Below are positions 5,308 to 44,608 of a stretch of 45,219 nucleotides of DNA, one piece after another. The stretch lies in IMG/VR virus record IMGVR_UViG_646206259_000004; one strand, given 5' to 3'. The notes under the pieces were generated by a model that did not search any database, was not told where the DNA came from, and saw nothing but the letters and a program-made list of their open reading frames with translations. The stretch's first letter is position 1. Each line of letters opens with the position of its first letter. The stretch is from a virus. Its lineage: Duplodnaviria; Heunggongvirae; Uroviricota; Caudoviricetes. A program made the position numbers and the translations under genes.

Positions 5308-5308
5308 A

Positions 5309-7138: not shown

Positions 7139-7203
7139 CTGACAATAGCCATATCGAATCGCTTCCGGCAACTCGTGAGTAAAAAGATTCGGTATCAGAA
7201 GAG

Positions 7204-8280: not shown

Positions 8281-8320
8281 GTGTTAATTTCTGGTCATGA
8301 GGTAATTTTCAGGAGGGCTT

Positions 8321-8743: not shown

Positions 8744-8874
8744 CGAGATTAAAGTGCATTAGTTCAGATGCAAATTGACATTTTGTGGCACAGGGTAGAG
8801 CTAGCGTGGTTGTCCGCTTTGTGCCAATAGCGGACATTGCTGGCTCATGGTATGTTAGTTTAAGGAGGCAGGTT

Positions 8875-9897
8875 ATGCCCTGTATTTCGCTGTGGTATAA
8901 TAGTTGCGCAATTGATACAAGGGAGCGTTACATCGTGAAAATTGTTTTCGAGGTTAATGGAAAGAAAGTTCCACTAAAATCTTTAAAATACATAAGCAAA
9001 AAAGATCAACTCGAAGTAATGAAAAACTGGTTCTTTGAAAACTTTGAAGATCCGGCAAATGCTTGTCCGTATGAAAGTAGAGAAGGTGGCTATGCTTACA
9101 TATATGGCGGGCCGTATGATGCGAGCGAAGAACTACAATCCATCTTCGGTCAATATGTTAAATCTGAGTATATTGAGGAATTAGTAGATGAATTACAAAC
9201 ACAATGTTTTGACTGGTCTGGAAACTCAAATAATATAGATGATTGGTACGATGATGATATCTACGACGCTGTAACGTCTTCCGGTAATCCGTATTTAAAA
9301 TTCATTGATAATATCGATAAAATAAAAAAACTTGCAAAAGATAAAACTGAACAACAGCAAAAAAACCACTTGCTTAGTTTGCTCTACACGAATGTTATTA
9401 CAGCTTTGGAAACGCTTTATGTTGAGCTATTCATTAATTCTATAGAGAAAGATGATGTCTACATAGCCAATTGTATAGAAAAAGGTAAGACTGAATTTAA
9501 AGTAAGCAAAGATATTGCTGCGTTGCCTTTCAAGGGTGAACCCATCGAGAAAATTAGGGGAGAGCTAATCAGGTCAATCAAGGAACACTTGATCAGTGCA
9601 AGCTGGCATAGCACTAAAAAGGTAATCGACCGCTATGAAGCTACATTCGATATAAAAGTACAAAAAGACTGTCCGATAGAAGCTATTGAATTGGCAACCC
9701 TCAATCGAAATCACTTAGTGCATCGTGGTGGAAAGGATAAAGAAGGGAACCTCGTAGTGATTACAGACCAGGATCTTGAAACGCTGATTGAAAATGCATC
9801 GAACCTGGCAATTATGCTCTACAACAGTTTAAATGTAGCAACGAATAAAACCACCATTTTGCAACCAGATGACAAACCGTTCATTCATGAATTTTAA
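8875..9897 (+). CDS. Hypothetical protein, gene A of AT-rich cassette (possible HEPN-like C-terminal region)
   Basis: ATG at 8875 six nt after AGGAGG; alternative in-frame GTG at 8935 downstream of an extended -10-like TGGTATAAT (8892-8900). Strongly AT-rich codon usage unlike flanking genes. C-terminal LNRNHLVHRGG fits an Rx4H HEPN-like motif (by eye only). Confidence 0.6.
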   Translation: MPCISLWYNSCAIDTRERYIVKIVFEVNGKKVPLKSLKYISKKDQLEVMKNWFFENFEDPANACPYESREGGYAYIYGGPYDASEELQSIFGQYVKSEYIEELVDELQTQCFDWSGNSNNIDDWYDDDIYDAVTSSGNPYLKFIDNIDKIKKLAKDKTEQQQKNHLLSLLYTNVITALETLYVELFINSIEKDDVYIANCIEKGKTEFKVSKDIAALPFKGEPIEKIRGELIRSIKEHLISASWHSTKKVIDRYEATFDIKVQKDCPIEAIELATLNRNHLVHRGGKDKEGNLVVITDQDLETLIENASNLAIMLYNSLNVATNKTTILQPDDKPFIHEF

Positions 9898-13568: not shown

Positions 13569-14386
13569 AACTGGAAGATTTACCGAAATACTACTCCCCA
13601 AAATCCCCTGGCCTGACCGATGCATCGGCCTCAACGTCAAAAGATGCGCTGAGTATCACTGATGTGATGGCCGCGCAGGGCATGACACAGAATCGGGCTG
13701 AGATGGGGTTTTCTGCGTTCCTGGGGAAAATGGGCATCAGTATGAATGACAGGGCGCGGGCAACAGAATTACTGGCAGATTATGCACTCAGTCGGTGCGA
13801 TCGTGTGGCGGCGTTGAGAAAACTTCCGGCAGAAATAAAACCGGTAGTGATGCGCATTATGGCTTCGTATGCGTTTGAAGATTATGCCCGTAGCGCGGCG
13901 AGCAAAAAACAGTGCCCTTGCTGTCACGGAAAAAAATTTATTGAAAGCGAGGTTTTTACAAACAAGATCCAGTATCCGGATGGTAAGCCACCAGTGTGGG
14001 CAAAGTGCACAAAAGGCGTGTATCCGTCTTACTGGGAAGAATGGAAAAAAGTCAGGGAGGTGGTAAAAGTTGCCTGTCCGGAGTGTGGCGGAAAGGGTGA
14101 GGTTTCCACCGCCTGTAAGGATTGCCGTGGGCGTGGTGTCGCCATTCATCGTGAAGAGTCGGTAAAACGTGGTATGCCTGTTATCAGAGATTGCCAGCGT
14201 TGTGGTGGTCGTGGCTGTGAAAGGCTGCCATCAACGGAGGCATTTAATGCCATATGCAAAGTGACGAGTGCTATCACGCTTGATACGTGGAAAAAATCAG
14301 TGAAACGCTTTTACGATACGTTGGTGGTTCGGTTTGACATTGAAGAGGCATGGGCGGAGCGGCAGTTAAAGAGGGTAACGCGATAG
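13565..14386 (+). CDS. Late gene antiterminator Q
   Basis: 273 aa, multiple CxxC zinc-finger motifs (CPCCHGK, CPECGGKG, CKDCRGRG, CQRCGGRG); overlaps the rusA stop; followed by promoter/terminator-like signals. Confidence 0.8.
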   Translation: MKLEDLPKYYSPKSPGLTDASASTSKDALSITDVMAAQGMTQNRAEMGFSAFLGKMGISMNDRARATELLADYALSRCDRVAALRKLPAEIKPVVMRIMASYAFEDYARSAASKKQCPCCHGKKFIESEVFTNKIQYPDGKPPVWAKCTKGVYPSYWEEWKKVREVVKVACPECGGKGEVSTACKDCRGRGVAIHREESVKRGMPVIRDCQRCGGRGCERLPSTEAFNAICKVTSAITLDTWKKSVKRFYDTLVVRFDIEEAWAERQLKRVTR

Positions 14387-14390
14387 TGTT

Positions 14391-14420
14391 GTTGATTTTT
14401 CCCGAATCTGTGGTAAATTT
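14391..14420 (+). promoter_or_regulatory. Candidate late promoter pR' (Q-dependent)
   Basis: TTGATT (-35-like) and TGgTAAATT (extended -10-like) immediately after Q; exact spacing uncertain. Confidence 0.4.
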
Positions 14421-14468
14421 GCTCTAACGATGGGCGTTTTATGCCTGACGTTAGAAGATTTTTTACAC

Positions 14469-14490
14469 CCCGCCGCCTGGCGGGTTTTTT
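14469..14490 (+). terminator. tR'-like intrinsic terminator
   Basis: CCCGCCGCCTGGCGGGTTTTTT hairpin plus T-run about 80 nt downstream of the Q stop. Confidence 0.55.
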
Positions 14491-14610
14491 ATGACTGAAA
14501 TCGCGTCAGTACAGTAAACGCGCTGGTGGCGGTGAATACCTGTCTTTCAGCTTGCTGGCTTTTTCGACAAGAGTTATTGGTGTGTCACGTTAACCGGAAA
14601 AGGAAAAGAC

Positions 14611-14808
14611 ATGCTAAAACAGCAGGATATGACAGAAACCGCCAGAGTGGTGTTTAATGAATTAAGCGTTACCGACCCGGCGACAGTCGGGGAGATAGCG
14701 CAGAATACTTACCTTTCACGCGAACGCTGCCAGTTAATACTGACTCAGCTGGTTATGGCGGGTCTGGCAGACTATCAGTTCGGTTGTTACAGACGCCTTC
14801 CGCAGTGA
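14611..14808 (+). CDS. Hypothetical small protein (65 aa)
   Basis: ORF with AAAGGAAAAG RBS-like sequence; lies between tR' and the methyltransferase. Confidence 0.45.
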   Translation: MLKQQDMTETARVVFNELSVTDPATVGEIAQNTYLSRERCQLILTQLVMAGLADYQFGCYRRLPQ

Positions 14809-14958
14809 AGGCTTTTTTATTTGTGGTAAATGGGCGGCTGGTGGGTGTTAGGGGCACCCACCAGCCATCTGCTCATGCGTCCGGATCACAAGCAAACCTC
14901 AGGCCCACTGCTTTGCGCAAAAGCAGAATGAGCCTATCAGAGACAGGCTTAATGATCC

Positions 14959-16008
14959 ATGCTTAATACTGTAAAAATATCCAGTTGTGAGTTAATCAAC
15001 GCCGACTGCCTGGAATTTATCCGGTCGTTACCCGAAAATTCTGTTGACCTGATAGTCACGGACCCGCCGTACTTTAAAGTGAAGCCTGAGGGCTGGGATA
15101 ACCAGTGGAAGGGCGACGATGATTACCTGAAGTGGCTGGACCAGTGTCTGGCGCAGTTCTGGCGGGTGCTGAAACCTGCCGGAAGTCTTTACCTGTTCTG
15201 TGGTCATCGCCTGGCATCTGATATCGAAATCATGATGCGTGAACGCTTCAGTGTGCTGAACCATATTATCTGGGCGAAGCCGTCCGGACGCTGGAACGGA
15301 TGCAACAAGGAAAGCCTGCGGGCGTATTTCCCCGCCACAGAGCGCATTCTGTTCGCGGAACATTATCAGGGGCCGTATCGTCCGAAAGATGCCGGGTATG
15401 CGGCGAAGGGCAGTGCACTGAAACAGCATGTGATGGCCCCGCTGATTTCTTACTTTCGTGATGCGCGCGCGGCCCTGGGGATAACGGCAAAACAGATTGC
15501 AGATGCCACAGGAAAGAAAAACATGGTGTCGCACTGGTTCAGTGCCAGTCAGTGGCAGCTACCGAATGAAAGCGATTATCTGAAATTACAGGCGCTGTTT
15601 GCCCGGGTGGCAGAAGAGAAGCATCGGCGTGGTGAACTGGAAAAGCTCCACCACCAGCTGGTGGATACGTATACCTCACTGAACCGGCAGTATGCGGAGC
15701 TGCTGAGTGAATATAAACATCTGCGGCGGTATTTTGGCGTGACGGTGCAGGTGCCGTATACCGATGTGTGGACGCATAAACCGGTGCAGTTCTATCCCGG
15801 GAAACATCCGTGCGAAAAACCGGCAGAAATGCTGCAGCAGATAATCAGCGCAAGTAGCCGTCCTGGTGATCTGGTTGCGGATTTTTTCATGGGGTCGGGT
15901 TCAACGGTAAAAGCGGCGATGGCACTGGGGCGTCGTGCGATTGGTGTTGAGCTGGAGACCGGACGTTTTGAGCAGACAGTCAGGGAAGTTCAGGATTTAA
16001 TCGTTTGA
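14959..16008 (+). CDS. Orphan DNA methyltransferase (DPPY motif; N6-adenine or N4-cytosine class)
   Basis: 349 aa; LIVTDPPYF catalytic motif and C-terminal FFMGSGST SAM-binding motif; no adjacent restriction endonuclease gene. Confidence 0.85.
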   Translation: MLNTVKISSCELINADCLEFIRSLPENSVDLIVTDPPYFKVKPEGWDNQWKGDDDYLKWLDQCLAQFWRVLKPAGSLYLFCGHRLASDIEIMMRERFSVLNHIIWAKPSGRWNGCNKESLRAYFPATERILFAEHYQGPYRPKDAGYAAKGSALKQHVMAPLISYFRDARAALGITAKQIADATGKKNMVSHWFSASQWQLPNESDYLKLQALFARVAEEKHRRGELEKLHHQLVDTYTSLNRQYAELLSEYKHLRRYFGVTVQVPYTDVWTHKPVQFYPGKHPCEKPAEMLQQIISASSRPGDLVADFFMGSGSTVKAAMALGRRAIGVELETGRFEQTVREVQDLIV

Positions 16009-16057: not shown

Positions 16058-16133
16058 GGCCCTTTAGCTCAGTGGTGAGAGCGAGCGACTCATAATCGCC
16101 AGGTCGCTGGTTCAAATCCAGCAAGGGCCACCA
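16058..16133 (+). tRNA. ileZ: tRNA with CAU anticodon (Ile2/lysidine type or Met; ileZ-like)
   Basis: Hand-folded cloverleaf: acceptor GGCCCTT/AAGGGCC, D-arm GCTC/GAGC, anticodon loop CTCATAA, T-loop TTCAAAT, 3' CCA encoded. Confidence 0.75.
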
Positions 16134-16140
16134 TCACATA

Positions 16141-16217
16141 CCGCCATTAGCTCATCAGGAAAGAGCGCCAGCCTTCGAAGCTGGTTGCGCGGAGTTCGGG
16201 TCCCCGAAGGCGGTCCA
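16141..16217 (+). tRNA. argN: tRNA-Arg (UCG anticodon; argN-like), atypical stems
   Basis: Cloverleaf folds with anticodon loop CTTCGAA and T-loop TTCGGGT, but with one mismatch each in the acceptor and T stems; needs tRNAscan confirmation. Confidence 0.5.
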
Positions 16218-16230
16218 TTATCTGTATCCT

Positions 16231-16307
16231 GCGTTGTTAGCTCAGCCGGACAGAGCAATTGCCTTCTAAGCAATCGGTCACTGGTTCGAATCCAGTACAA
16301 CGCGCCA
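16231..16307 (+). tRNA. argO: tRNA-Arg (UCU anticodon; argO-like)
   Basis: Acceptor GCGTTGT/ACAACGC, anticodon loop CTTCTAA, T-loop TTCGAAT, 3' CCA encoded. Confidence 0.75.
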
Positions 16308-19518: not shown

Positions 19519-20145
19519 ATGAACCGCGTACTGTGCGTGGTCATCATTGCCCTGCTGGTGGCCTGTGGTGCGCTTAGTCTGGGGCTGAATCATTACCGTG
19601 ATAACGCCATTACCTACAAAGCCCAGCGCGACAAAAATGTCAGAGAACTGAAGCTGGCGAACGCGGCAATTACTGACATGNNNNNNNNNNNNNNNNNNNN
19701 NNNNNNNNNNNNNNNNNNNNNNNNNNNNNNNNNNNNNNNNNNNNNNNNNNNNNNNNNNNNNNNNNNNNNNNNNNNNNNNNNNNNNNNNNNNNNNNNNNNN
19801 NNNNNNNNNNNNNNNNNNNNNNNNNNNNNNNNNNNNNNNNNNNNNNNNNNNNNNNNNNNNNNNNNNNNNNNNNNNNNNNNNNNNNNNNNNNNNNNNNNNN
19901 NNNNNNNNNNNNNNNNNNNNNNNNNNNNNNNNNNNNNNNNNNNNNNNNNNNNNNNNNNNNNNNNNNNNNNNNNNNNNNNNNNNNNNNNNNNNNNNNNNNN
20001 NNNNNNNNNNNNNNNNNNNNNNNNNNNNNNNNNNNNNNNNNNNNNNNNNNNNNNNNNNNNNNNNNNNNNNNNNNCGCGACTGATAATAATGCAAAAACAA
20101 CTTGAAGGGGCACAGCTATACATTCGAGAGCAATGCCTCAGATAA
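19519..20145 (+). CDS. Rz: Rz i-spanin (interior N-masked; embedded Rz1 not visible)
   Basis: N-terminus ...[31 protein letters not shown] and C-terminus [20 protein letters not shown] match lambda Rz; 19681-20074 is N-masked. Confidence 0.8.
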
Positions 20146-21576: not shown

Positions 21577-23117
21577 NNNNNNNNNNNNNNNNNNNNNNNN
21601 NNNNNNNNNNNNNNNNNNNNNNNNNNNNNNNNNNNNNNNNNNNNNNNNNNNNNNNNNNNNNNNNNNNNNNNNNNNNNNNNNNNNNNNNNNNNNNNNNNNN
21701 NNNNNNNNNNNNNNNNNNNNNNNNNNNNNNNNNNNNNNNNNNNNNNNNNNNNNNNNNNNNNNNNNNNNNNNNNNNNNNNNNNNNNNNNNNNNNNNNNNNN
21801 NNNNNNNNNNNNNNNNNNNNNNNNNNNNNNNNNNNNNNNNNNNNNNNNNNNNNNNNNNNNNNNNNNNNNNNNNNNNNNNNNNNNNNNNNNNNNNNNNNNN
21901 NNNNNNNNNNNNNNNNNNNNNNNNNNNNNNNNNNNNNNNNNNNNNNNNNNNNNNNNNNNNNNNNNNNNNNNNNNNNNNNNNNNNNNNNNNNNNNNNNNNN
22001 NNNNNNNNNNNNNNNNNNNNNNNNNNNNNNNNNNNNNNNNNNNNNNNNNNNNNNNNNNNNNNNNNNNNNNNNNNNNNNNNNNNNNNNNNNNNNNNNNNNN
22101 NNNNNNNNNNNNNNNNNNNNNNNNNNNNNNNNNNNNNNNNNNNNNNNNNNNNNNNNNNNNNNNNNNNNNNNNNNNNNNNNNNNNNNNNNNNNNNNNNNNN
22201 NNNNNNNNNNNNNNNNNNNNNNNNNNNNNNNNNNNNNNNNNNNNNNNNNNNNNNNNNNNNNNNNNNNNNNNNNNNNNNNNNNNNNNNNNNNNNNNNNNNN
22301 NNNNNNNNNNNNNNNNNNNNNNNNNNNNNNNNNNNNNNNNNNNNNNNNNNNNNNNNNNNNNNNNNNNNNNNNNNNNNNNNNNNNNNNNNNNNNNNNNNNN
22401 NNNNNNNNNNNNNNNNNNNNNNNNNNNNNNNNNNNNNNNNNNNNNNNNNNNNNNNNNNNNNNNNNNNNNNNNNNNNNNNNNNNNNNNNNNNNNNNNNNNN
22501 NNNNNNNNNNNNNNNNNNNNNNNNNNNNNNNNNNNNNNNNNNNNNNNNNNNNNNNNNNNNNNNNNNNNNNNNNNNNNNNNNNNNNNNNNNNNNNNNNNNN
22601 NNNNNNNNNNNNNNNNNNNNNNNNNNNNNNNNNNNNNNNNNNNNNNNNNNNNNNNNNNNNNNNNNNNNNNNNNNNNNNNNNNNNNNNNNNNNNNNNNNNN
22701 NNNNNNNNNNNNNNNNNNNNNNNNNNNNNNNNNNNNNNNNNNNNNNNNNNNNNNNNNNNNNNNNNNNNNNNNNNNNNNNNNNNNNNNNNNNNNNNNNNNN
22801 NNNNNNNNNNNNNNNNNNNNNNNNNNNNNNNNNNNNNNNNNNNNNNNNNNNNNNNNNNNNNNNNNNNNNNNNNNNNNNNNNNNNNNNNNNNNNNNNNNNN
22901 NNNNNNNNNNNNNNNNNNNNNNNNNNNNNNNNNNNNNNNNNNNNNNNNNNNNNNNNNNNNNNNNNNNNNNNNNNNNNNNNNNNNNNNNNNNNNNNNNNNN
23001 NNNNNNNNNNNNNNNNNNNNNNNNNNNNNNNNNNNNNNNNNNNNNNNNNNNNNNNNNNNNNNNNNNNNNNNNNNNNNNNNNNNNNNNNNNNNNNNNNNNN
23101 NNNNNNNNNNNNNNNNA

Positions 23118-24766: not shown

Positions 24767-25934
24767 NNNNNNNNNNNNNNNNNNNNNNNNNNNNNNNNNN
24801 NNNNNNNNNNNNNNNNNNNNNNNNNNNNNNNNNNNNNNNNNNNNNNNNNNNNNNNNNNNNNNNNNNNNNNNNNNNNNNNNNNNNNNNNNNNNNNNNNNNN
24901 NNNNNNNNNNNNNNNNNNNNNNNNNNNNNNNNNNNNNNNNNNNNNNNNNNNNNNNNNNNNNNNNNNNNNNNNNNNNNNNNNNNNNNNNNNNNNNNNNNNN
25001 NNNNNNNNNNNNNNNNNNNNNNNNNNNNNNNNNNNNNNNNNNNNNNNNNNNNNNNNNNNNNNNNNNNNNNNNNNNNNNNNNNNNNNNNNNNNNNNNNNNN
25101 NNNNNNNNNNNNNNNNNNNNNNNNNNNNNNNNNNNNNNNNNNNNNNNNNNNNNNNNNNNNNNNNNNNNNNNNNNNNNNNNNNNNNNNNNNNNNNNNNNNN
25201 NNNNNNNNNNNNNNNNNNNNNNNNNNNNNNNNNNNNNNNNNNNNNNNNNNNNNNNNNNNNNNNNNNNNNNNNNNNNNNNNNNNNNNNNNNNNNNNNNNNN
25301 NNNNNNNNNNNNNNNNNNNNNNNNNNNNNNNNNNNNNNNNNNNNNNNNNNNNNNNNNNNNNNNNNNNNNNNNNNNNNNNNNNNNNNNNNNNNNNNNNNNN
25401 NNNNNNNNNNNNNNNNNNNNNNNNNNNNNNNNNNNNNNNNNNNNNNNNNNNNNNNNNNNNNNNNNNNNNNNNNNNNNNNNNNNNNNNNNNNNNNNNNNNN
25501 NNNNNNNNNNNNNNNNNNNNNNNNNNNNNNNNNNNNNNNNNNNNNNNNNNNNNNNNNNNNNNNNNNNNNNNNNNNNNNNNNNNNNNNNNNNNNNNNNNNN
25601 NNNNNNNNNNNNNNNNNNNNNNNNNNNNNNNNNNNNNNNNNNNNNNNNNNNNNNNNNNNNNNNNNNNNNNNNNNNNNNNNNNNNNNNNNNNNNNNNNNNN
25701 NNNNNNNNNNNNNNNNNNNNNNNNNNNNNNNNNNNNNNNNNNNNNNNNNNNNNNNNNNNNNNNNNNNNNNNNNNNNNNNNNNNNNNNNNNNNNNNNNNNN
25801 NNNNNNNNNNNNNNNNNNNNNNNNNNNNNNNNNNNNNNNNNNNNNNNNNNNNNNNNNNNNNNNNNNNNNNNNNNNNNNNNNNNNNNNNNNNNNNNNNNNN
25901 NNNNNNNNNNNNNNNNNNNNNNNNNNNNNNNNNT

Positions 25935-30639: not shown

Positions 30640-33324
30640 TCTTGTTATTGACCTGAGTCTGGATGCTGTCCGTTTCGATGAGCAGATGAGCCGGGTAAGG
30701 CGTCATTTTTCAGGTCTGGATACCGACGCCAGAAAAACCGCCAGTGCTGTTGAACAGGGCCTGAGCCGCCAGGCGCTGGCTGCACAAAAAGCCGGGATTT
30801 CCGTCGGGCAGTATAAAGCGGCCATGCGAACCCTGCCCGCACAGTTTACGGATATCGCCACGCAGCTTGCCGGTGGTCAGAATCCCTGGTTGATCCTGCT
30901 GCAACAGGGCGGTCAGGTGAAGGACTCCTTCGGCGGGATGATCCCCATGTTCAGGGGGCTTGCCGGTGCGATCACCCTGCCGATGGTCGGGGTCACCTCG
31001 CTGGCGGTGGCGACAGGTGCGCTGGCGTACGCCTGGTACCAGGGCGACGCCACGCTTTCAGAATTTAATAAAACGCTGGTCCTTTCCGGCAATCAGGCCG
31101 GACTGACTGCCGATCGTATGCTGACGCTCTCAAGAGCCGGGCAGGCAGCAGGGCTGACGTTTAACCAGGCGAGAGAGTCACTGGCAGCCTTGGTGAATGC
31201 CGGTGTGCGTGGTGGTGAACAGTTTGATGCCATCAACCAGAGTGTCGCGCGTTTTGCGTCTGCATCCGGTGTGGAGGTGGATNNNNNNNNNNNNNNNNNN
31301 NNNNNNNNNNNNNNNNNNNNNNNNNNNNNNNNNNNNNNNNNNNNNNNNNNNNNNNNNNNNNNNNNNNNNNNNNNNNNNNNNNNNNNNNNNNNNNNNNNNN
31401 NNNNNNNNNNNNNNNNNNNNNNNNNNNNNNNNNNNNNNNNNNNNNNNNNNNNNNNNNNNNNNNNNNNNNNNNNNNNNNNNNNNNNNNNNNNNNNNNNNNN
31501 NNNNNNNNNNNNNNNNNNNNNNNNNNNNNNNNNNNNNNNNNNNNNNNNNNNNNNNNNNNNNNNNNNNNNNNNNNNNNNNNNNNNNNNNNNNNNNNNNNNN
31601 NNNNNNNNNNNNNNNNNNNNNNNNNNNNNNNNNNNNNNNNNNNNNNNNNNNNNNNNNNNNNNNNNNNNNNNNNNNNNNNNNNNNNNNNNNNNNNNNNNNN
31701 NNNNNNNNNNNNNNNNNNNNNNNNNNNNNNNNNNNNNNNNNNNNNNNNNNNNNNNNNNNNNNNNNNNNNNNNNNNNNNNNNNNNNNNNNNNNNNNNNNNN
31801 NNNNNNNNNNNNNNNNNNNNNNNNNNNNNNNNNNNNNNNNNNNNNNNNNNNNNNNNNNNNNNNNNNNNNNNNNNNNNNNNNNNNNNNNNNNNGTTCCGTA
31901 ACGTGACGGCAGAGCAGATTGCGTATGTTGCACAGCTGCAGCGTTCCGGAGACGAGGCCGGGGCATTGCAGGCGGCGAACGATATCGCCACGAAAGGCTT
32001 TGATGAGCAGACCCGTCGCCTGAAAGAAAACATGGGAACACTGGAGACCTGGGCGGATAAAACAGGGAAGGCATTCAAATCGATGTGGGATGCCATTCTG
32101 GATATCGGTCGTCCGGAATCCTCAGCGGATATGCTCGCCAGTGCGCAGAAGGCATTTGATGAGGCGGATAAAAAATGGCAGTGGTACCAGAGCCGGAGCC
32201 AGCGCCGGGGAAAGACCTCCTCTTTTCGTGCGAACCTTCAGGGGGCATGGGATGACCGGGAAAATGCCCGTCTGGGTCTGGCAGCGGCCACGCTGCAGTC
32301 GGATATGGAAAAAGCCGGTGAACTGGCGGCAAGGGACAGGGCTGAGCGTGAGTCGTCACAGCTGAAGTATACCGGAGAGGCGCAGAAGGCGTATGAGCGC
32401 CTGCAGACGCCGCTGGATAAATATACCGCCCGTCAGAAAGAGCTGAATAAGGCCCTGAAAGACGGAAAAATCCTGCAGGCGGATTACAACACGCTGATGG
32501 CGTCGGCAAAAAAGGATTATGAATCGACGCTGAAAAAGCCGTCAGGTGTGAAGGTGTCTGCCGGTGAGCGCCAGGAAGACCGGGCGCATGCAGCCCTGCT
32601 GGCGCTTGAAACCGAGCTCAGGACGCTGGAAAAACACAGCGGTGTGAATGAGAAAATCAGCCAGCAGCGCCGGGATTTATGGGAAGCGGAAAGTCAGTAT
32701 GTGGTCCTGAAAGAGGCCGCCACGAAACGGCAGTTATCTGAGCAGGAAAAATCCCTGCTGGCTCATGAGAAAGAGACGCTGGAGTACAAACGCCAGCTGG
32801 CTGAGCTGGGAGACAAGATTGAACACCAGAAGCGGCTGAATGAGCTGGCACAGCAGGCGGCGCGGTTTGAACAGCAGCAAAGCGCGAAGCAGGCGGCAAT
32901 CAGCGCAAAAGCCCGCGGCCTCACCGACCGTCAGGCGCAGCGGGAGTCGGAAGAGCAGCGCCTTCGTGAGGTGTACGGTGATAATCCGGCTGCGCTGGCG
33001 AAGGCCACATCGGCACTGAAGAACACCTGGTCTGCGGAGGAGCAGCTTCGTGGAAGCTGGATGGCCGGGATGAAGTCCGGCTGGGGAGAGTGGGCGGAAA
33101 GTGCGACGGACAGTTTTTCGCAGGTTAAAAGTGTGGCCACGCAGACCTTTGACGGTATTGCACAGAATATGGCGGCGATGCTGACCGGCAGCGAACAGAA
33201 CTGGCGGGGATTCACCCGTTCCGTGCTGTCCATGATGACAGAAATTCTGCTTAAGCAGGCAATGGTGGGGATTGTCGGGAGTATCGGCAGCGCCATTGGC
33301 GGGGCTGTTGGTGGCGGCGCATCC
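30620..33324 (+). CDS. H: Tape measure protein H (two internal/3' stretches N-masked; continues beyond 33324)
   Basis: N-terminus MSQPVGDLVIDLSLDAVRFDEQMSRVRRHFSG... and later segments (AEQIAYVAQLQRSGDEAGALQAAN..., ...LLKQAMVGIVGSIGSAIGGAVGGGAS) match lambda gpH. The frame differs on the two sides of the 31283-31892 mask, so mask length is not codon-faithful. Confidence 0.9.
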
Positions 33325-34932
33325 NNNNNNNNNNNNNNNNNNNNNNNNNNNNNNNNNNNNNNNNNNNNNNNNNNNNNNNNNNNNNNNNNNNNNNNNNNNN
33401 NNNNNNNNNNNNNNNNNNNNNNNNNNNNNNNNNNNNNNNNNNNNNNNNNNNNNNNNNNNNNNNNNNNNNNNNNNNNNNNNNNNNNNNNNNNNNNNNNNNN
33501 NNNNNNNNNNNNNNNNNNNNNNNNNNNNNNNNNNNNNNNNNNNNNNNNNNNNNNNNNNNNNNNNNNNNNNNNNNNNNNNNNNNNNNNNNNNNNNNNNNNN
33601 NNNNNNNNNNNNNNNNNNNNNNNNNNNNNNNNNNNNNNNNNNNNNNNNNNNNNNNNNNNNNNNNNNNNNNNNNNNNNNNNNNNNNNNNNNNNNNNNNNNN
33701 NNNNNNNNNNNNNNNNNNNNNNNNNNNNNNNNNNNNNNNNNNNNNNNNNNNNNNNNNNNNNNNNNNNNNNNNNNNNNNNNNNNNNNNNNNNNNNNNNNNN
33801 NNNNNNNNNNNNNNNNNNNNNNNNNNNNNNNNNNNNNNNNNNNNNNNNNNNNNNNNNNNNNNNNNNNNNNNNNNNNNNNNNNNNNNNNNNNNNNNNNNNN
33901 NNNNNNNNNNNNNNNNNNNNNNNNNNNNNNNNNNNNNNNNNNNNNNNNNNNNNNNNNNNNNNNNNNNNNNNNNNNNNNNNNNNNNNNNNNNNNNNNNNNN
34001 NNNNNNNNNNNNNNNNNNNNNNNNNNNNNNNNNNNNNNNNNNNNNNNNNNNNNNNNNNNNNNNNNNNNNNNNNNNNNNNNNNNNNNNNNNNNNNNNNNNN
34101 NNNNNNNNNNNNNNNNNNNNNNNNNNNNNNNNNNNNNNNNNNNNNNNNNNNNNNNNNNNNNNNNNNNNNNNNNNNNNNNNNNNNNNNNNNNNNNNNNNNN
34201 NNNNNNNNNNNNNNNNNNNNNNNNNNNNNNNNNNNNNNNNNNNNNNNNNNNNNNNNNNNNNNNNNNNNNNNNNNNNNNNNNNNNNNNNNNNNNNNNNNNN
34301 NNNNNNNNNNNNNNNNNNNNNNNNNNNNNNNNNNNNNNNNNNNNNNNNNNNNNNNNNNNNNNNNNNNNNNNNNNNNNNNNNNNNNNNNNNNNNNNNNNNN
34401 NNNNNNNNNNNNNNNNNNNNNNNNNNNNNNNNNNNNNNNNNNNNNNNNNNNNNNNNNNNNNNNNNNNNNNNNNNNNNNNNNNNNNNNNNNNNNNNNNNNN
34501 NNNNNNNNNNNNNNNNNNNNNNNNNNNNNNNNNNNNNNNNNNNNNNNNNNNNNNNNNNNNNNNNNNNNNNNNNNNNNNNNNNNNNNNNNNNNNNNNNNNN
34601 NNNNNNNNNNNNNNNNNNNNNNNNNNNNNNNNNNNNNNNNNNNNNNNNNNNNNNNNNNNNNNNNNNNNNNNNNNNNNNNNNNNNNNNNNNNNNNNNNNNN
34701 NNNNNNNNNNNNNNNNNNNNNNNNNNNNNNNNNNNNNNNNNNNNNNNNNNNNNNNNNNNNNNNNNNNNNNNNNNNNNNNNNNNNNNNNNNNNNNNNNNNN
34801 NNNNNNNNNNNNNNNNNNNNNNNNNNNNNNNNNNNNNNNNNNNNNNNNNNNNNNNNNNNNNNNNNNNNNNNNNNNNNNNNNNNNNNNNNNNNNNNNNNNN
34901 NNNNNNNNNNNNNNNNNNNNNNNNNNNNNNNT

Positions 34933-35403
34933 GGCTGGTATCAGGTACGGATTGCCGGGCGGGATGCAGGAGAAACCGAATTATCATCCCGTCTTAATGA
35001 GCCGCTGGCAAATGGTGCCGTGATCCACATCGTGCCGCGTCTTGCGGGAGCAAAAAGTGGCGGTGTGTTTCAGGCGGTGCTGGGTGCGGCGTTGATTGCT
35101 ACGGCAATCTGGATGCCGGGGATCAGTATCGCTTTCAGTGACATTCTCTTTTCAATGGGTGCGGCGATGACGCTTGGTGGTGTGGCGCAGATGCTGGCAC
35201 CGAAAGCCAGAACTCCCCGTACACAGACAACGGATAACGGCAAACAGAACACCTATTTCTCCTCACTGGATAACATGGTTGCCCAGGGCAATGTCCTGCC
35301 TGTTCTGTACGGTGAAATGCGCGTGGGGTCACGTGTGGCATCTCAGGAGATCAGCACGGCAGATGAAGGGGATGGTGGTCAGGTTGTGGTAATTGGGCGG
35401 TAA
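34933..35403 (+). CDS. I: Tail assembly protein I, C-terminal part visible after the mask
   Basis: C-terminal ...VLPVLYGEMRVGSRVASQEISTADEGDGGQVVVIGR, lambda gpI-like; immediately upstream of the J region. Confidence 0.75.
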   Translation, partial: GWYQVRIAGRDAGETELSSRLNEPLANGAVIHIVPRLAGAKSGGVFQAVLGAALIATAIWMPGISIAFSDILFSMGAAMTLGGVAQMLAPKARTPRTQTTDNGKQNTYFSSLDNMVAQGNVLPVLYGEMRVGSRVASQEISTADEGDGGQVVVIGR

Positions 35404-35476
35404 TATTATTTTACTCATGTTCTAACTAATTTAATATTTATATCGAACACTGATAATTATTCTATTGGTTAGCTAT

Positions 35477-35815
35477 ATGAACAAAACGATTTTATTCTGC
35501 ACGATTATTGCCTTAACAGGATGTAAATCTTTGGATTACGTAAAATCCGGAAAACCTGTAATGGAAGGTAATTCATTAAAAAATATTGATGAATTGTCAG
35601 GCTGCATATCCAGACAATGGGCTGGTAATGGAACACCTATAACATCCCTTCCTATTGAGAATGGGGTAAGCCTTTTAGTTCCACAGGCTATGGGGGGATA
35701 TGATGTTGTGCTTGATATCAAAAAAGCAGGAAATGGCAGTAGTTTTACTCTTTATGAACGTGTACCAGCATTAACGCCAAAAATTTTTGCTGATAGTGTT
35801 AATGCATGTAAATAA
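35477..35815 (+). CDS. AT-rich lipoprotein moron between I and J (candidate superinfection-exclusion lipoprotein)
   Basis: 112 aa; signal peptide with lipobox (MNKTILFCTIIALTGC); strongly AT-rich gene and flanks unlike neighbouring tail genes; lambda has no gene here. Confidence 0.6.
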   Translation: MNKTILFCTIIALTGCKSLDYVKSGKPVMEGNSLKNIDELSGCISRQWAGNGTPITSLPIENGVSLLVPQAMGGYDVVLDIKKAGNGSSFTLYERVPALTPKIFADSVNACK

Positions 35816-35881
35816 TAGTTAATCCTGTCGTAACTCATGAGCCGCCTTTTGGGCGGCTTTGTTGTTTATGGAGTGTGAGGA

Positions 35882-38800
35882 ATGGGTAAAGGAAGCAGTA
35901 AGGGGCATACCCCGCGCGAAGCGAGGGACAACCTGAAGTCCACGCAGCTGCTGAGTGTGATCGATGCCATCAGCGAAGGGCCGGTTGAAGGTCCGGTGGA
36001 CGGATTAAAAAGCGTGCTGCTGAACAGTACGCCGGTGCTGGACAGTGAGGGGAATACCAATATATCCGGTGTCACGGTGGTGTTCCGGGCAGGTGAGCAG
36101 GAGCAGACACCGCCGGAGGGATTTGAATCCTCCGGCTCCGAGACGGTGCTGGGTACGGAAGTGAAATATGACACGCCGATCACCCGGACCATCACGTCGG
36201 CAAACATCGACCGTCTGCGCTTTACCTTCGGTGTGCAGGCACTGGTGGAAACCACCTCAAAGGGGGACAGGAATCCGTCGGAAGTCCGCCTGCTGGTTCA
36301 GATCCAGCGTAACGGTGGCTGGGTGACGGAAAAAGACATCACCATTAAGGGCAAAACCACCTCGCAGTATCTGGCCTCGGTGGTGGTGGATAACCTGCCG
36401 CCGCGCCCGTTTAATATCCGGATGCGCAGAATGACGCCGGACAGCACCACAGACCAGCNNNNNNNNNNNNNNNNNNNNNNNNNNNNNNNNNNNNNNNNNN
36501 NNNNNNNNNNNNNNNNNNNNNNNNNNNNNNNNNNNNNNNNNNNNNNNNNNNNNNNNNNNNNNNNNNNNNNNNNNNNNNNNNNNNNNNNNNNNNNNNNNNN
36601 NNNNNNNNNNNNNNNNNNNNNNNNNNNNNNNNNNNNNNNNNNNNNNNNNNNNNNNNNNNNNNNNNNNNNNNNNNNNNNNNNNNNNNNNNNNNNNNNNNNN
36701 NNNNNNNNNNNNNNNNNNNNNNNNNNNNNNNNNNNNNNNNNNNNNNNNNNNNNNNNNNNNNNNNNNNNNNNNNNNNNNNNNNNNNNNNNNNNNNNNNNNN
36801 NNNNNNNNNNNNNNNNNNNNNNNNNNNNNNNNNNNNNNNNNNNNNNNNNNNNNNNNNNNNNNNNNNNNNNNNNNNNNNNNNNNNNNNNNNNNNNNNNNNN
36901 NNNNNNNNNNNNNNNNNNNNNNNNNNNNNNNNNNNNNNNNNNNNNNNNNNNNNNNNNNNNNNNNNNNNNNNNNNNNNNNNNNNNNNNNNNNNNNNNNNNN
37001 NNNNNNNNNNNNNNNNNNNNNNNNNNNNNNNNNNNNNNNNNNNNNNNNNNNNNNNNNNNNNNNNNNNNNNNNNNNNNNNNNNNNNNNNNNNNNNNNNNNN
37101 NNNNNNNNNNNNNNNNNNNNNNNNNNNNNNNNNNNNNNNNNNNNNNNNNNNNNNNNNNNNNNNNNNNNNNNNNNNNNNNNNNNNNNNNNNNNNNNNNNNN
37201 NNNNNNNNNNNNNNNNNNNNNNNNNNNNNNNNNNNNNNNNNNNNNNNNNNNNNNNNNNNNNNNNNNNNNNNNNNNNNNNNNNNNNNNNNNNNNNNNNNNN
37301 NNNNNNNNNNNNNNNNNNNNNNNNNNNNNNNNNNNNNNNNNNNNNNNNNNNNNNNNNNNNNNNNNNNNNNNNNNNNNNNNNNNNNNNNNNNNNNNNNNNN
37401 NNNNNNNNNNNNNNNNNNNNNNNNNNNNNNNNNNNNNNNNNNNNNNNNNNNNNNNNNNNNNNNNNNNNNNNNNNNNNNNNNNNNNNNNNNNNNNNNNNNN
37501 NNNNNNNNNNNNNNNNNNNNNNNNNNNNNNNNNNNNNNNNNNNNNNNNNNNNNNNNNNNNNNNNNNNNNNNNNNNNNNNNNNNNNNNNNNNNNNNNNNNN
37601 NNNNNNNNNNNNNNNNNNNNNNNNNNNNNNNNNNNNNNNNNNNNNNNNNNNNNNNNNNNNNNNNNNNNNNNNNNNNNNNNNNNNNNNNNNNNNNNNNNNN
37701 NNNNNNNNNNNNNNNNNNNNNNNNNNNNNNNNNNNNNNNNNNNNNNNNNNNNNNNNNNNNNNNNNNNNNNNNNNNNNNNNNNNNNNNNNNNNNNNNNNNN
37801 NNNNNNNNNNNNNNNNNNNNNNNNNNNNNNNNNNNNNNNNNNNNNNNNNNNNNNNNNNNNNNNNNNNNNNNNNNNNNNNNNNNNNNNNNNNNNNNNNNNN
37901 NNNNNNNNNNNNNNNNNNNNNNNNNNNNNNNNNNNNNNNNNNNNNNNNNNNNNNNNNNNNNNNNNNNNNNNNNNNNNNNNNNNNNNNNNNNNNNNNGTCG
38001 GTATCGTTCCGGATTGCCGCACCGGCAGCACCGTCGAGGATTGAGCTGACGCCGGGCTATTTTCAGATAACCGCCACGCCGCATCTTGCTGTTTATGACC
38101 CGACGGTACAGTTTGAGTTCTGGTTCTCGGAAAAGCGGATTACCGATATCAGGCAGGTTGAAACCACAGCCCGCTATCTTGGTACGGCGCTGTACTGGAT
38201 AGCCGCCAGTATCAATATCAAACCGGGCCATGATTATTATTTTTACGTTCGCAGTGTGAACACCGTTGGCAAATCGGCATTCGTGGAGGCTGTCGGTCGG
38301 GCGAGCGATGATGCGGAAGGTTACCTGGATTTTTTCAAAGGAGAAATCGGGAAAACACATCTGGCCCAGGAGTTGTGGACGCAGATTGATAACGGTCAGC
38401 TTGCGCCGGACCTGGCTGAAATCAGGACGTCCATTACGAATGTCAGCAATGAAATCACGCAGACCGTCAATAAAAAACTGGAAGACCAGAGTGCGGCAAT
38501 CCAGCAGATACAGAAAGTTCAGGTTGATACAAATAATAACCTGAACAGCATGTGGGCCGTGAAACTGCAGCAGATGAAGGACGGACGCCTTTATATTGCG
38601 GGTATCGGAGCCGGTATTGAGAATACGCCAGCAGGTATGCAGAGTCAGGTGCTTCTGGCTGCTGACCGGATTGCGATGATTAATCCTGCGAATGGCAACA
38701 CAAAGCCGATGTTTGTTGGTCAGGGCGATCAGATATTCATGAACGACGTGTTCCTGAAACGCCTGACGGCTCCGACCATTACCAGCGGCGGTAATCCTCC

Positions 38801-39362
38801 GGCATTTTCCCTGACACCGGACGGGCGGCTGACGGCGAAAAATGCCGATATCAGCGGTAACGTGAATGCGAACTCCGGGACGCTCAACAACGTCACGATT
38901 AACGAGAACTGTCGGGTTCTGGGAAAATTGTCCGCCAACCAGATTGAAGGCGATCTCGTTAAAACAGTGGGCAAAGCTTTCCCCCGGGACTCCCGTGCAC
39001 CGGAACGGTGGCCATCAGGGACCATCACCGTCAGGGTTTATGACGATCAGCCGTTTGACCGGCAGATTGTTATTCCGGCGGTGGCATTCAGCGGCGCTAA
39101 ACATGAGCGGGAGAATAACGATATTTATTCGTCATGCCGCCTGATAGTACGGAAAAACGGTGCTGAAATTTATAACCGTACCGCGCTGGATAATACGCTG
39201 ATTTACAGTGGTGTTATTGATATGCCAGCTGGTCGCGGCCACATGACGCTGGAGTTTTCGGTGTCAGCATGGCTGGTGAATAACTGGTATCCCACAGCAA
39301 GTATCAGCGATTTGCTGGTTGTGGTGATGAAGAAAGCCACCGCAGGCATCAGTATCAGCTGA
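35882..39362 (+). CDS. J: Central tail fibre / host specificity protein J (interior N-masked)
   Basis: First ~190 aa nearly identical to lambda gpJ ([33 protein letters not shown]...); post-mask segment ...[44 protein letters not shown]... and C-terminal receptor-binding region are J-like. Frame differs across the 36459-37996 mask. Confidence 0.9.
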
Positions 39363-39429: not shown

Positions 39430-40029
39430 ATGCGTAAAGTTTGTGCAGTCATTTTGTCCGCAGCCATCTGTCTGTCCGTATCCGGTGCGCCTGCATGGGC
39501 GTCTGAACATCAGTCCACACTGAGCGCGGGGTATCTTCATGCCCGTACGAACGCTCCCGGCAGCGATAATCTGAACGGGATTAACGTGAAATACCGTTAT
39601 GAGTTTACGGACGCGCTGGGGCTGATTACGTCCTTCAGTTATGCCAATGCTGAGGATGAGCAAAAAACGCACTACAGCGATACCCGCTGGCATGAAGATT
39701 CCGTGCGTAACCGCTGGTTCAGCGTGATGGCGGGGCCGTCTGTACGCGTGAATGAATGGTTCAGCGCGTATTCGATGGCGGGTGTGGCTTACAGCCGTGT
39801 GTCGACTTTCTCCGGGGATTATCTCCGCGTAACTGACAACAAGGGGAAAACGCACGATGTGCTGACCGGAAGTGATGACGGTCGCCACAGCAACACGTCT
39901 CTGGCGTGGGGGGCTGGCGTGCAGTTTAACCCGACCGAATCCGTGACCATTGACCTTGCTTATGAAGGTTCCGGTAGTGGCGACTGGCGAACGGATGCAT
40001 TTATTGTTGGTATCGGATACCGTTTCTGA
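39430..40029 (+). CDS. lom: Lom outer-membrane protein (Ail/Lom family)
   Basis: 199 aa with signal peptide; GINVKYRYE.TD, SVMAGP, AYEGSGSGDWRTD.FIVG.GY.F motifs as in lambda Lom. Confidence 0.9.
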   Translation: MRKVCAVILSAAICLSVSGAPAWASEHQSTLSAGYLHARTNAPGSDNLNGINVKYRYEFTDALGLITSFSYANAEDEQKTHYSDTRWHEDSVRNRWFSVMAGPSVRVNEWFSAYSMAGVAYSRVSTFSGDYLRVTDNKGKTHDVLTGSDDGRHSNTSLAWGAGVQFNPTESVTIDLAYEGSGSGDWRTDAFIVGIGYRF

Positions 40030-43939: not shown

Positions 43940-44608
43940 CTATTTTTTCCCTGAAGCGGAAAACATTACTACAGTACCTTGAACCTTGGTTTTAACATTC
44001 TCGAAATGCTCTGAGAGTATATGTGTTAAGCCTTCTTCGGAATCTTTTGTGTTTGAAAAGATGCCTTTCTGATTGTAAATGCGCATCAGTTTTTGACCGA
44101 AGCTATTGTGCACAACTCCATCGCCAAGAATTGTGGCTCCGTATAGAGTTCCATCGTCAGTTAAGGCCTGCGCCGCATTGCGTATTACACAGCTTTTTGT
44201 AGATATATTTCCAGGCAGGCAGTGAAGAAGGTAAAACATGGAAATGGAATCAAATTGACCATGTAACGCCGCGGGATAAGGTTCAAAAACATCATGGCTA
44301 ATTTTATGTTTAATTTTTGATTCCCCAGCCCTTGTAGATGCCGCGTTCAGGCTAGCTTCGTTCAAATCCATTAAAGATATCAGACTACTCTCAGGTACGT
44401 GAGTAAGGTAAAACCCAGTTCCAACACCAATATCCAGATGGTTGTTACCTACATGTTCCAGAAAGTGTGGAAGAAGGTGTTCCTTTGTAGGACATCCCCA
44501 TGCAAGCCGATTTGATACTCCCAAAACCCACCAGTCATAAAGCTTTAGGGTAAGTGGTGTGTAAATTTTAGCCCCATCATCTGTGTTTTTTTTCATTGAT
44601 TTCACCAT
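43940..44608 (-). CDS. Class I SAM-dependent methyltransferase-like moron protein
   Basis: 222 aa, AT-rich, opposite strand; motif I-like LDIGVGTGFY, acidic post-I (LISLMDL) and motif II-like FDSISMFYLLH. Confidence 0.55.
   Translation of the reverse strand: MVKSMKKNTDDGAKIYTPLTLKLYDWWVLGVSNRLAWGCPTKEHLLPHFLEHVGNNHLDIGVGTGFYLTHVPESSLISLMDLNEASLNAASTRAGESKIKHKISHDVFEPYPAALHGQFDSISMFYLLHCLPGNISTKSCVIRNAAQALTDDGTLYGATILGDGVVHNSFGQKLMRIYNQKGIFSNTKDSEEGLTHILSEHFENVKTKVQGTVVMFSASGKK

What the first reader, a model, noticed from the sequence alone, without database searches (positions are those of the whole stretch)
35404..35881. AT-rich lipoprotein gene inserted between tail genes I and J
Lambda has no gene between I and J. 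Here a 112-aa lipoprotein (lipobox LTGC) with AT-rich sequence and flanks is inserted. Prophage-encoded lipoproteins at tail loci (Cor- or Llp-like) typically block the phage receptor to give superinfection exclusion, so this may be a receptor-masking exclusion factor.
Basis: partly seen in the sequence, partly recalled or inferred. Interest (0 to 1): 0.6.

Follow-up and report, generated by a model that had tools for sequence, protein, structure and literature searches.

The report
Orphan phage lipoprotein cassette between I and J
A 420-base, AT-rich extra gene sits between two tail genes of an E. coli prophage and encodes an outer-membrane lipoprotein from a widespread, uncharacterised phage family. 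It may protect the cell from other phages, but it is unrelated to the known receptor-blocking lipoproteins and is not tied to the phage's receptor-binding domain.

Summary
A 112-aa ORF (35477-35815, +) lies between tail genes I (stop 35403) and J (ATG 35882). It has a canonical lipoprotein signal (LTGC, Cys16, Lys at +2). Its GC is 36%, against 56-59% in the flanks. It is a 420-bp insertion: lambda and about 96% of homologous E. coli I-J junctions lack it.

The protein belongs to PHROG 914 (unknown function). It has no Pfam, PADLOC or PDB relative by sequence. Similarity to Cor and Llp stops at the signal peptide. The predicted fold is a TBP-like alpha+beta domain (nearest: Francisella Flpp3), with a family-invariant Cys pair.

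Homologs occupy different slots in other phages: K|I, T|tape-measure, or directly downstream of CI-type repressors. Most have a hairpin terminator after them. So the gene is a mobile accessory ("moron") gene.

The same E. coli lipoprotein (98% or more identical) sits upstream of at least four different J receptor-binding domains. The window's J domain type occurs about 7,600 times in E. coli genomes, about 95% of them without the gene.

Superinfection exclusion at the envelope remains the best guess (about 0.4). The specific "masks its own J receptor, Cor/Llp-like" model gets no support. Expression timing and target are unknown.

The parts
34932..35403 (+). 3' end of tail assembly gene I (upstream part N-masked); left flank of the insertion
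   Evidence: 0.56 GC
35404..35476 (+). AT-rich leader / possible promoter region; weak SD. Only sub-threshold sigma-70 candidates by eye: TTTACT-16-TAATAT at 35410-35437, and GATAAT at 35452-35457
   Evidence: sequence; the scan found no + strand promoter at 9/12 or better; GC 0.265 in 35400-35599
35413..35419 (+). left copy of the 7-bp direct repeat ACTCATG, at the left edge of the insertion
35420..35839 (+). 420-bp insertion relative to lambda and to empty E. coli I-J junctions
   Evidence: alignment A4; 334 of 8786 homologous I-J places carry it
35477..35815 (+). lipoprotein CDS, 112 aa (PHROG 914; RefSeq WP_001332187.1 hypothetical protein)
35477..35524 (+). signal peptide with lipobox L13-T14-G15-C16 (Cys16 codon 35522-35524); Lys at +2 predicts outer-membrane sorting
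   Evidence: lipobox present in 107/112 family representatives, no Asp at +2 in 44 aligned members
35603..35605 (+). Cys43 codon, invariant in the family; inferred disulfide partner of Cys111
35807..35809 (+). Cys111 codon, invariant in the family
35833..35839 (+). right copy of the direct repeat ACTCATG
35839..35869 (+). hairpin GAGCCGCC-TTTT-GGGCGGCTT followed by a T-rich run (terminator-like). A homologous hairpin is already present in the lambda and empty-site I-J spacer
35882..39362 (+). gene J (central part N-masked); right flank. The C-terminal domain (38931-39359) is 'type A', only about 35-40% like lambda's over the last ~130 aa

Best explanation
The gap between I and J holds a horizontally acquired 420-bp accessory cassette (a 'moron'). 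Its product is exported by Sec and lipidated at Cys16. [quoted passage not shown] There a compact 97-residue alpha+beta domain would sit on a tether of about 10 residues, facing the periplasm, probably stapled by a Cys43-Cys111 disulfide.

The most likely role (inferred, not shown) is a prophage-expressed envelope factor that interferes with entry of incoming phages (superinfection exclusion). It would act from the periplasmic side of the outer membrane. The comparative data say its target is not dictated by the J C-terminal receptor-binding domain. The target is therefore either an outer-membrane component used more generally, or a step after adsorption that lambda-like tails share.

Shown: the gene, the lipoprotein signal, the insertion, family membership, mobility between phage contexts, purifying selection, and lack of homology to Cor and Llp.

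Inferred: outer-membrane location, the disulfide, expression in the lysogen, and the exclusion function.
For: - Lipoprotein signal and OM-type +2 residue.
- A family of about 120 clusters at 50% identity, nearly all 105-125 aa, with three conserved Cys.
- Found almost only in phage or prophage DNA.
- Foreign composition; absent from about 96% of homologous junctions.
- A hairpin terminator follows the gene in most of the contexts examined.
- In three independent prophages (L081 and L087 are Burkholderia gladioli) the homolog is the first gene downstream of the CI-type repressor on the same strand. In L062 it lies 73 bp downstream of a CI-type HTH gene, inside an immI-like island (Arc, Bro-N, KilA-N). 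That position is typical of lysogen-expressed genes.
- 56/59 copies are intact and changes are mostly synonymous.
- Characterised exclusion factors Llp and Rtp45 are also small OM lipoproteins that act from the periplasmic face (PMC12685063).
- The family also occurs in an Antarctic Pseudomonas phage and in metagenomes. This fits a phage-centred function better than a pathogen-centred one.
Against: - There is no experimental data and no homology to any exclusion or defence protein: PADLOC none; Cor and Llp align at the signal peptide only.
- No sigma-70 consensus promoter lies upstream here or in three homolog contexts, so lysogenic expression is unproven.
- The hairpin downstream also exists in empty sites.
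- There is no linkage to a particular J receptor-binding domain.
- A few genomes carry 2-3 copies of the cassette. That is awkward for strong exclusion of like phages.
- 3/59 copies are frameshifted.
- The fold is generic (TBP-like/Flpp3/BamC-N).
Confidence: 0.4

Rival explanations
1. One reading: a Cor/Llp-type mask. The lipoprotein binds the periplasmic face of the very receptor recognised by this prophage's J protein and switches it off.
For: - Same kind of molecule (small OM lipoprotein) and a position inside the tail-tip gene cluster.
- Llp and Rtp45 work this way.
Against: - The same lipoprotein (98% or more identical) sits upstream of at least four J C-terminal domain types: 25 A, 6 B at 42% identity, 3 C at 60%, 2 D.
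- Type A J domains occur at 7592 places in E. coli, but the cassette at only 352.
- None of the 53 phage records with the same J domain at 95% or more has it.
- An identical Klebsiella homolog precedes J proteins of 3104-3367 aa.
- In other phages the gene is next to the tape-measure gene or the repressor, not next to the receptor-binding gene.
- Fraca has a homolog plus cor.
- No sequence or fold relation to Cor or Llp.
Confidence: 0.12
2. A lysogenic-conversion factor for the bacterium rather than against phages. It would be an OM lipoprotein that changes envelope properties (serum or complement resistance, stress tolerance, host interaction), as Bor/Iss does.
For: - Size and type are similar to lambda Bor.
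- The E. coli cassette is seen in extraintestinal pathogens such as UTI89, APEC O1, S88 and IHE3034.
- The nearest solved fold is Flpp3, deposited under the title 'F. tularensis Virulence Determinant' (2mu4).
- Repressor-adjacent homologs suggest lysogenic expression.
Against: - No Pfam hit to Bor or to any other family.
- Family members occur in environmental phages and metagenomes (Antarctic Pseudomonas phage). Serum resistance is irrelevant there.
- The strain distribution may simply follow one prophage lineage.
Confidence: 0.25
3. A late (lytic-cycle) gene read through with the tail operon. The lipoprotein would be made during virion production to stop progeny from being lost on debris or on already infected cells, or to tune envelope breakdown at lysis.
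For: - Same strand as the late operon in every tail-module context, with gaps as short as 32 bp to the upstream gene.
- No own promoter found.
- Exclusion factors are described as also preventing adsorption to cell fragments produced after lysis.
Against: - A terminator hairpin directly after the gene, and the repressor-side position of distant homologs, point to transcription outside the late operon.
- This is not exclusive with the main explanation.
Confidence: 0.13
4. A functionless hitch-hiker or decaying remnant.
For: - 3 of 59 copies are frameshifted.
- Weak SD and no promoter consensus.
Against: - Mostly synonymous variation, and 56/59 copies intact.
- Lipobox and two further Cys are conserved down to about 25% identity across Proteobacteria.
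- A confident compact fold (pLDDT 84.5).
Confidence: 0.05

Closest known systems
T5 Llp (lytic conversion lipoprotein; FhuA blocker) and Rtp45 (LptD blocker)
   Same: A phage-encoded lipoprotein with a classical lipobox, predicted to sit in the inner leaflet of the outer membrane. The gene lies within tail or host-recognition gene clusters.
   Different: - Mature domain is 97 aa (10.3 kDa), against about 6-7 kDa.
- Only the signal peptide aligns.
- The gene is not adjacent to, and not co-inherited with, the receptor-binding domain.
Cor (phi80/N15/HK022/T1 exclusion lipoprotein)
   Same: A lipoprotein encoded in the tail region of lambdoid or siphoviral genomes.
   Different: - hhalign against the cor gene annotated in phage Fraca aligns 30 columns, covering only the signal peptide and lipobox region.
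- The PHROG differs: 914, unknown function.
- Fraca carries both genes.
Lambda Bor / Iss
   Same: A lambdoid moron encoding an OM lipoprotein of about 100 aa.
   Different: No sequence relation (no Pfam hit). Different genome position.
Morons as defined for HK97/HK022 (Juhala et al. 2000; from my own knowledge)
   Same: An extra gene between two conserved late genes, absent from close relatives, with deviant base composition and a terminator hairpin after it.
   Different: No convincing own promoter was found. The hairpin is also present in the empty site.
Ltp of Streptococcus phage TP-J34 and gp15 of HK97 (exclusion at the DNA-injection step; from my own knowledge)
   Same: Prophage-encoded envelope proteins that act after adsorption. 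This would fit the lack of linkage to the receptor-binding domain and the adjacency to I or the tape-measure gene.
   Different: No homology was tested or expected. Ltp is Gram-positive, and gp15 is an inner-membrane protein.
Francisella Flpp3 (DUF3568), BamC N-terminal domain, DUF302 (TBP-like alpha+beta folds)
   Different: 6-12% identity, no Pfam match, and no functional inference possible.

Membership tests
Bacterial lipoprotein (Lgt/LspA substrate) | Positively charged n-region, hydrophobic h-region, and lipobox [LVI][ASTVI][GAS]C within the first ~35 residues | tested here: met
   MNK / TILFCTIIA / LTGC; mean KD 2.7; lipobox in 107/112 family representatives. SignalP and LipoP were not available.
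PHROG 914 (unknown function) | Full-length match to the family profile | tested here: met
   E 7.3e-33, residues 1-112 on profile positions 1-118 of 118
Cor | Sequence homology of the mature domain to Cor | tested here: not met
   hhalign of the family profile against Fraca Cor aligns only 30 columns (signal peptide and lipobox region)
Cor | Inactivates FhuA and excludes FhuA-dependent phages | not testable with these tools
   Needs plating and adsorption assays
Llp (T5) | Sequence or structural homology to Llp (PDB 8a60_B) | tested here: not met
Llp / Rtp45-type exclusion lipoproteins | Gene tightly linked to the receptor-binding protein whose receptor it blocks | tested here: not met
   At least four J C-terminal domain types lie downstream of the same lipoprotein. 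The same J domain usually occurs without it.
Moron | An extra gene between genes that are adjacent in relatives | tested here: met
   Absent in lambda and in 8452 of 8786 homologous E. coli I-J places
Moron | Base composition different from the flanks | tested here: met
   GC 0.36 against 0.56 and 0.59. Homologs in tail operons are 0.41-0.46 against 0.44-0.55.
Moron | Own terminator | tested here: inconclusive
   A hairpin plus T-run lies at 35839-35869, and one follows most homologs examined. But the same hairpin exists in the empty lambda site.
Moron | Own promoter, with expression from the prophage | tested here: inconclusive
   No + strand sigma-70 match at 9/12 or better; only weak candidates by eye. 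Repressor-adjacent homologs hint at lysogenic expression.
Bor/Iss | Match to the Pfam Bor family | tested here: not met
   No Pfam family at E up to 10. None in 45 family members apart from the lipid-attachment motif.
Known anti-phage defence proteins (PADLOC) | Match to any PADLOC model | tested here: not met
   0 families at E up to 10
Structural tail component | Homology to tail proteins, and a cytoplasmic location | tested here: not met
   No Pfam, PHROG or PDB structural hit. The export signal is conserved.

The most novel reading that the evidence does not exclude
The lipoprotein is an exclusion factor of a new type. It would not mask a receptor. Anchored under the outer membrane, it would recognise a conserved component that lambda-like tails eject through the membrane (gpI, or the tape-measure C-terminus) and block genome delivery after adsorption.

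This reading would explain several observations:
- The gene is repeatedly placed next to I (K|I, I|J) or next to the tape-measure gene.
- In Pseudomonas phage phiAH14a a family member travels together with a second, 79%-identical copy of gpI into the repressor-side region.
- The gene is independent of the J receptor-binding domain.
Probability: 0.12. Interest if true: 0.7.

Novelty: new variant of a known kind. Interest (0 to 1): 0.4.

Why it matters
Phage lipoproteins that close the door behind an infecting phage are known for only a few receptors (FhuA, LptD), and all are tiny proteins linked to the receptor-binding gene. This is a different, larger, widespread phage lipoprotein family (about 120 clusters at 50% identity, from Enterobacteriaceae to Burkholderia and Pseudomonas) with no assigned function. 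It is present in about 6% of complete E. coli genomes, including model uropathogens (UTI89) and the type strain.

If it excludes phages independently of the receptor-binding domain, it would reveal a new entry-blocking step. It would also bear on phage-therapy host range in ExPEC and Klebsiella. If it is instead a host-fitness factor, it is a new lysogenic-conversion gene in ST95-type pathogens. Either way it is cheap to test.

Tried and rejected
Searches that found nothing or failed:
- Megablast of the insert against 50,697 phage records: no match.
- Pfam, NCBIfam and PADLOC: nothing beyond a VirB7 signal-peptide hit at E 0.08.
- PDB sequence searches with the single protein and with the profile: nothing meaningful.
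- The afdb50 fold library was unavailable.
- The search for related loci could not use the wide alignments A3, A5 or A7. A6 found nothing.
- The species-representative genome scan gave a single Kluyvera locus.
- P0138 could not be looked up, and P0006 is not on record.
- Literature: no paper holds the RefSeq accession. Searches on prophage lipoproteins and exclusion gave nothing on this family.
- tblastn of a Burkholderia homolog against phage records: no match.

Ideas considered and dropped:
- The two long multi-stretch 'hits' P0089 and P0130 are repeat or low-complexity proteins, not family members.
- An immunity protein for the NlpC/P60 domain of gpK was considered because of the K|I adjacency. 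I dropped it because, from published domain analysis, K is thought to act on I in the cytoplasm, and because the gene also occurs far from K.
- I assumed from memory that this J C-terminus was lambda's LamB-binding domain. That was wrong: it is only about 35-40% identical over the last ~130 aa.

Full report
**1. The observation**

The window is a lambdoid prophage of the kind found in E. coli UTI89, and six stretches of it are N-masked. Gene I ends at 35403 and J begins at 35882.

Between them lies one ORF, 35477-35815 on the + strand, of 112 aa. RefSeq calls it WP_001332187.1 'hypothetical protein'.

Its N-terminus is a textbook lipoprotein signal: MNK, then TILFCTIIA, then LTGC with Cys16, and Lys at +2. 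That +2 residue predicts transfer to the outer membrane under the E. coli sorting rule (sequence; hydrophobicity).

The gene has 36% GC, against 56-59% in the flanks.

**2. It is an insertion**

I searched a 1-kb probe spanning the junction against 5,426 complete E. coli genomes. It finds 8,786 homologous I-J junctions in 4,351 genomes, and only 334 of them contain the extra DNA.

The insert alone is found at 352 places in 340 genomes. The 20 listed, all 100% identical, are mostly ExPEC/APEC strains (UTI89, APEC O1, S88, IHE3034, NU14), plus the type strain ATCC 11775.

Alignment with lambda and with an empty E. coli site (strain S40) puts the extra DNA at about 35420-35839.

A 7-bp direct repeat, ACTCATG, lies at both edges, 420 bp apart. 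There are eight repeats of 7 nt or more in this stretch, so the repeat itself is not rare. Its coincidence with both edges is suggestive, no more.

The hairpin and T-run after the gene (35839-35869) is not unique to the insert. A homologous hairpin, followed by the same TTTATGGAG before the J start, is present in lambda and in the empty site.

**3. The protein family**

- There is no Pfam family at E up to 10.
- NCBIfam gives only a signal-peptide hit to VirB7 at E 0.08.
- PADLOC gives nothing.
- PDB by sequence gives nothing meaningful.
- PHROG 914 ('unknown function') matches end to end at E 7e-33.

A word-seeded search found relatives at 48-62% identity in Klebsiella, Enterobacter, Kluyvera and Jejubacter. 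An exhaustive profile search of 1.84 billion representatives found 121 clusters at E below 1e-3, and nearly all are 105-125 aa.

Across 45 diverse members at 16-51% identity, only three columns are invariant: Cys16, Cys43 and Cys111. Of 112 full-size representatives, 107 carry a lipobox and 76 have exactly three Cys. No Asp occurs at +2.

I infer a periplasmic disulfide between Cys43 and Cys111. The model puts them in the two helices, but I could not measure the distance.

**4. The fold**

AlphaFold2 on an 11-sequence alignment gives pLDDT 84.5 and pTM 0.75. The model is a five-stranded sheet packed against two helices, following the signal peptide.

Foldseek against PDB gives Flpp3 at E 5e-3 and nothing better. 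Against predicted viral structures, the only good hit is an uncharacterised protein of Pseudomonas phage phiAH14a (E 2e-5; TM 0.70/0.83).

Llp is in the PDB (8a60_B) but does not appear among the best structural matches.

**5. Cor and Llp**

I compared the family profile with the cor gene annotated in phage Fraca and with T5 Llp. Only 30 and 20 columns align, covering the signal peptide and lipobox.

The mature protein is 97 aa and 10.3 kDa. The characterised exclusion lipoproteins are about 6-7 kDa (PMC12685063).

It is therefore not a member of either family.

**6. Where homologs sit**

In Enterobacteriaceae the gene is always inside a lambda-like tail operon, on the same strand, but in three different slots:

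- I|J in E. coli (this window).
- K|I in Klebsiella prophages, Klebsiella phage ST846-OXA48phi9.1, a Kluyvera genome (L073), several IMG/VR contigs, and the HK97-like phage Fraca. The LMessi homolog was not placed.
- Between the chaperone gene T and the tape-measure gene in Enterobacter and in four IMG/VR contigs.

The lipoprotein is more conserved than its structural neighbours between these lineages. It is 50-59% identical, against 30-40% for K, I and J. Together with the different slots, this shows that it moves independently of the tail genes.

More distant members (24-30% identity) sit elsewhere:

- In three prophages (L081 and L087 are Burkholderia gladioli) the gene is the first gene downstream of the CI-type repressor, on the same strand, opposite the cro-like and replication operon. 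In L081 and L087 it has its own hairpin terminator.
- In one case it is divergent from replication genes.
- In one case it lies on the opposite strand beside head genes of a small element.
- In one case it lies in a genomic island.
- In IMG/VR contig L062 the K-I gap holds a 4.8-kb island with Arc-like, Bro-N and KilA-N genes and a CI-type HTH gene. The lipoprotein gene follows that HTH gene by 73 bp on the same strand. The arrangement recalls P22 immI.

Most of the copies examined are followed by a hairpin and T-run, and copies in tail operons have lower GC than their flanks.

All this is the signature of a mobile accessory gene. The four repressor-adjacent cases are the best, though indirect, evidence that it is expressed from the prophage.

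Against that, a simple sigma-70 scan finds no + strand promoter upstream here or in three homolog contexts.

**7. Test of the receptor-mask idea**

If the protein masked the receptor used by its own phage, it should travel with the receptor-binding end of J. It does not.

- 36 IMG/VR loci (plus UTI89) have a complete J downstream of a lipoprotein gene that is about 98% or more identical at the DNA level. Their last 150 residues of J fall into four groups: 25 like the window, 6 at 42% identity, 3 at 60%, and 2 unalignable.
- The window's J end is the commonest type in E. coli, with 7,592 places in 3,379 genomes, against 352 cassette copies.
- That J end is 95% or more identical in 53 phage records (long-tailed Stx phages and others). 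None of them has the gene.
- An identical Klebsiella homolog precedes J proteins of 3,104 to 3,367 aa.
- Fraca has a homolog as well as an annotated cor gene.
- A few genomes hold two or three copies of the cassette.

These results do not exclude an exclusion function. They remove the comparative support for a mask specific to the phage's own receptor.

**8. Selection**

Of 59 complete near-identical copies in IMG/VR, 56 are intact and 3 are frameshifted. There are 16 DNA alleles but only 7 protein alleles, and the allelic differences are mostly synonymous.

The gene is maintained as a coding sequence.

**9. Interpretation**

What is established:

- It is a moron-like cassette.
- It encodes an exported, lipidated, disulfide-capable protein of 10 kDa.
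- The protein belongs to a phage-specific family of unknown function.

What is inferred:

- It sits under the outer membrane.
- It is made in the lysogen.

My best guess, at about 0.4, is superinfection exclusion acting from the periplasmic face of the outer membrane on a target that is not set by the J receptor-binding domain. The rivals:

| Rival | Confidence |
|---|---|
| Bor-like host-fitness factor | 0.25 |
| Purely late-expressed helper against loss of progeny on debris | 0.13 |
| No function | 0.05 |

The most novel reading not excluded is a block of genome delivery through recognition of ejected tail-tip proteins. It is prompted by two things. First, the gene is repeatedly adjacent to I or to the tape-measure gene. 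Second, in phiAH14a a full-length family member, followed by a terminator, sits beside a second copy of gpI. That copy is 79% identical to the phage's own gpI, and the pair lies in the repressor-side region. I give this reading about 0.12.

**10. Novelty**

The gene is annotated only as hypothetical. I found no paper on it.

A prophage lipoprotein moron is a familiar kind of thing. This family, its fold and its independence from the receptor-binding gene are not described. I rate it a new variant of a known kind, of moderate interest, and cheap to test.

Noticed in passing
window 35839-35881; L080 (lambda) 946-1005: Lambda's own I-J spacer, and empty E. coli sites, already contain a terminator-like hairpin (AAACCGCC-TGC-GGGCGGTTT) followed by TTTATGGAG. 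This is homologous to the hairpin after the lipoprotein gene. Very similar hairpins follow homologs in Fraca, in L072 and in Pseudomonas phage phiAH14a (GAGCCGCC-TAC-GGGCGGTTTTTTT). The lambda spacer may be the scar of a lost cassette, or a preferred insertion point.
   Followed up: partly
window 35413-35419 and 35833-35839: A 7-bp direct repeat, ACTCATG, lies at both edges of the 420-bp insertion. It could be a target duplication or the microhomology used for deletion.
   Followed up: partly
L098 (phage phiAH14a, KU708004) 13998-15003 minus strand; 44700-47309: A full 114-aa family member is mis-annotated as two ORFs (p34 and p33). It is followed by a terminator and by p32, a 79%-identical second copy of the phage's own gpI (p84), all in the repressor-side early region. 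The K-I gap of the phage's tail module holds another lipoprotein (p83, 140 aa) that aligns with the family only at the N-terminus.
   Followed up: partly
L062 (IMG/VR 2836662228_000003) 4063-8911: A 4.8-kb island lies between tail genes K and I. It holds Arc-like, Bro-N and KilA-N genes and a CI-type HTH gene, then the lipoprotein homolog and a 149-aa ORF. It is an immI-like secondary immunity region inside a tail operon.
   Followed up: partly
window 19681-20074, 21577-23116, 24767-25933, 31283-31892, 33325-34931, 36459-37996: Six runs of N mask parts of the terminase, portal, protease, tape-measure-to-I region and the middle of J. ORF calls across them are artefacts (e.g. the '1166-aa' ORF 31903-35403).
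   Followed up: yes
window 39430-40029: An Ail/Lom family outer-membrane beta-barrel gene lies directly after J, as in lambda. It is a second envelope-directed accessory gene in the same tail region.
   Followed up: no
window 16058-16307: Three tRNA genes lie before the lysis genes; in UTI89 they directly follow the DNA-methyltransferase gene. They are CAT (called Met by ARAGORN, annotated Ile in UTI89), Arg-TCG and Arg-TCT.
   Followed up: no
window 43940-44608 (- strand): A class I SAM-dependent methyltransferase gene on the opposite strand lies just after the tail-fibre assembly gene. Fragments of further tail-fibre assembly genes follow it. This looks like a cargo or recombination hotspot at the prophage end.
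   Followed up: no
window 38931-39359: This J C-terminal domain is only about 35-40% identical to lambda's LamB-binding end. It is nonetheless the commonest J end in E. coli (7,592 places, up to 10 per genome). I could not identify its receptor.
   Followed up: partly
window 35060-35200 (gene I): gpI carries two hydrophobic, membrane-like segments. A weak NfeD_membrane hit was seen in the phiAH14a paralog. This is relevant if tail-tip proteins insert into the envelope during ejection.
   Followed up: no
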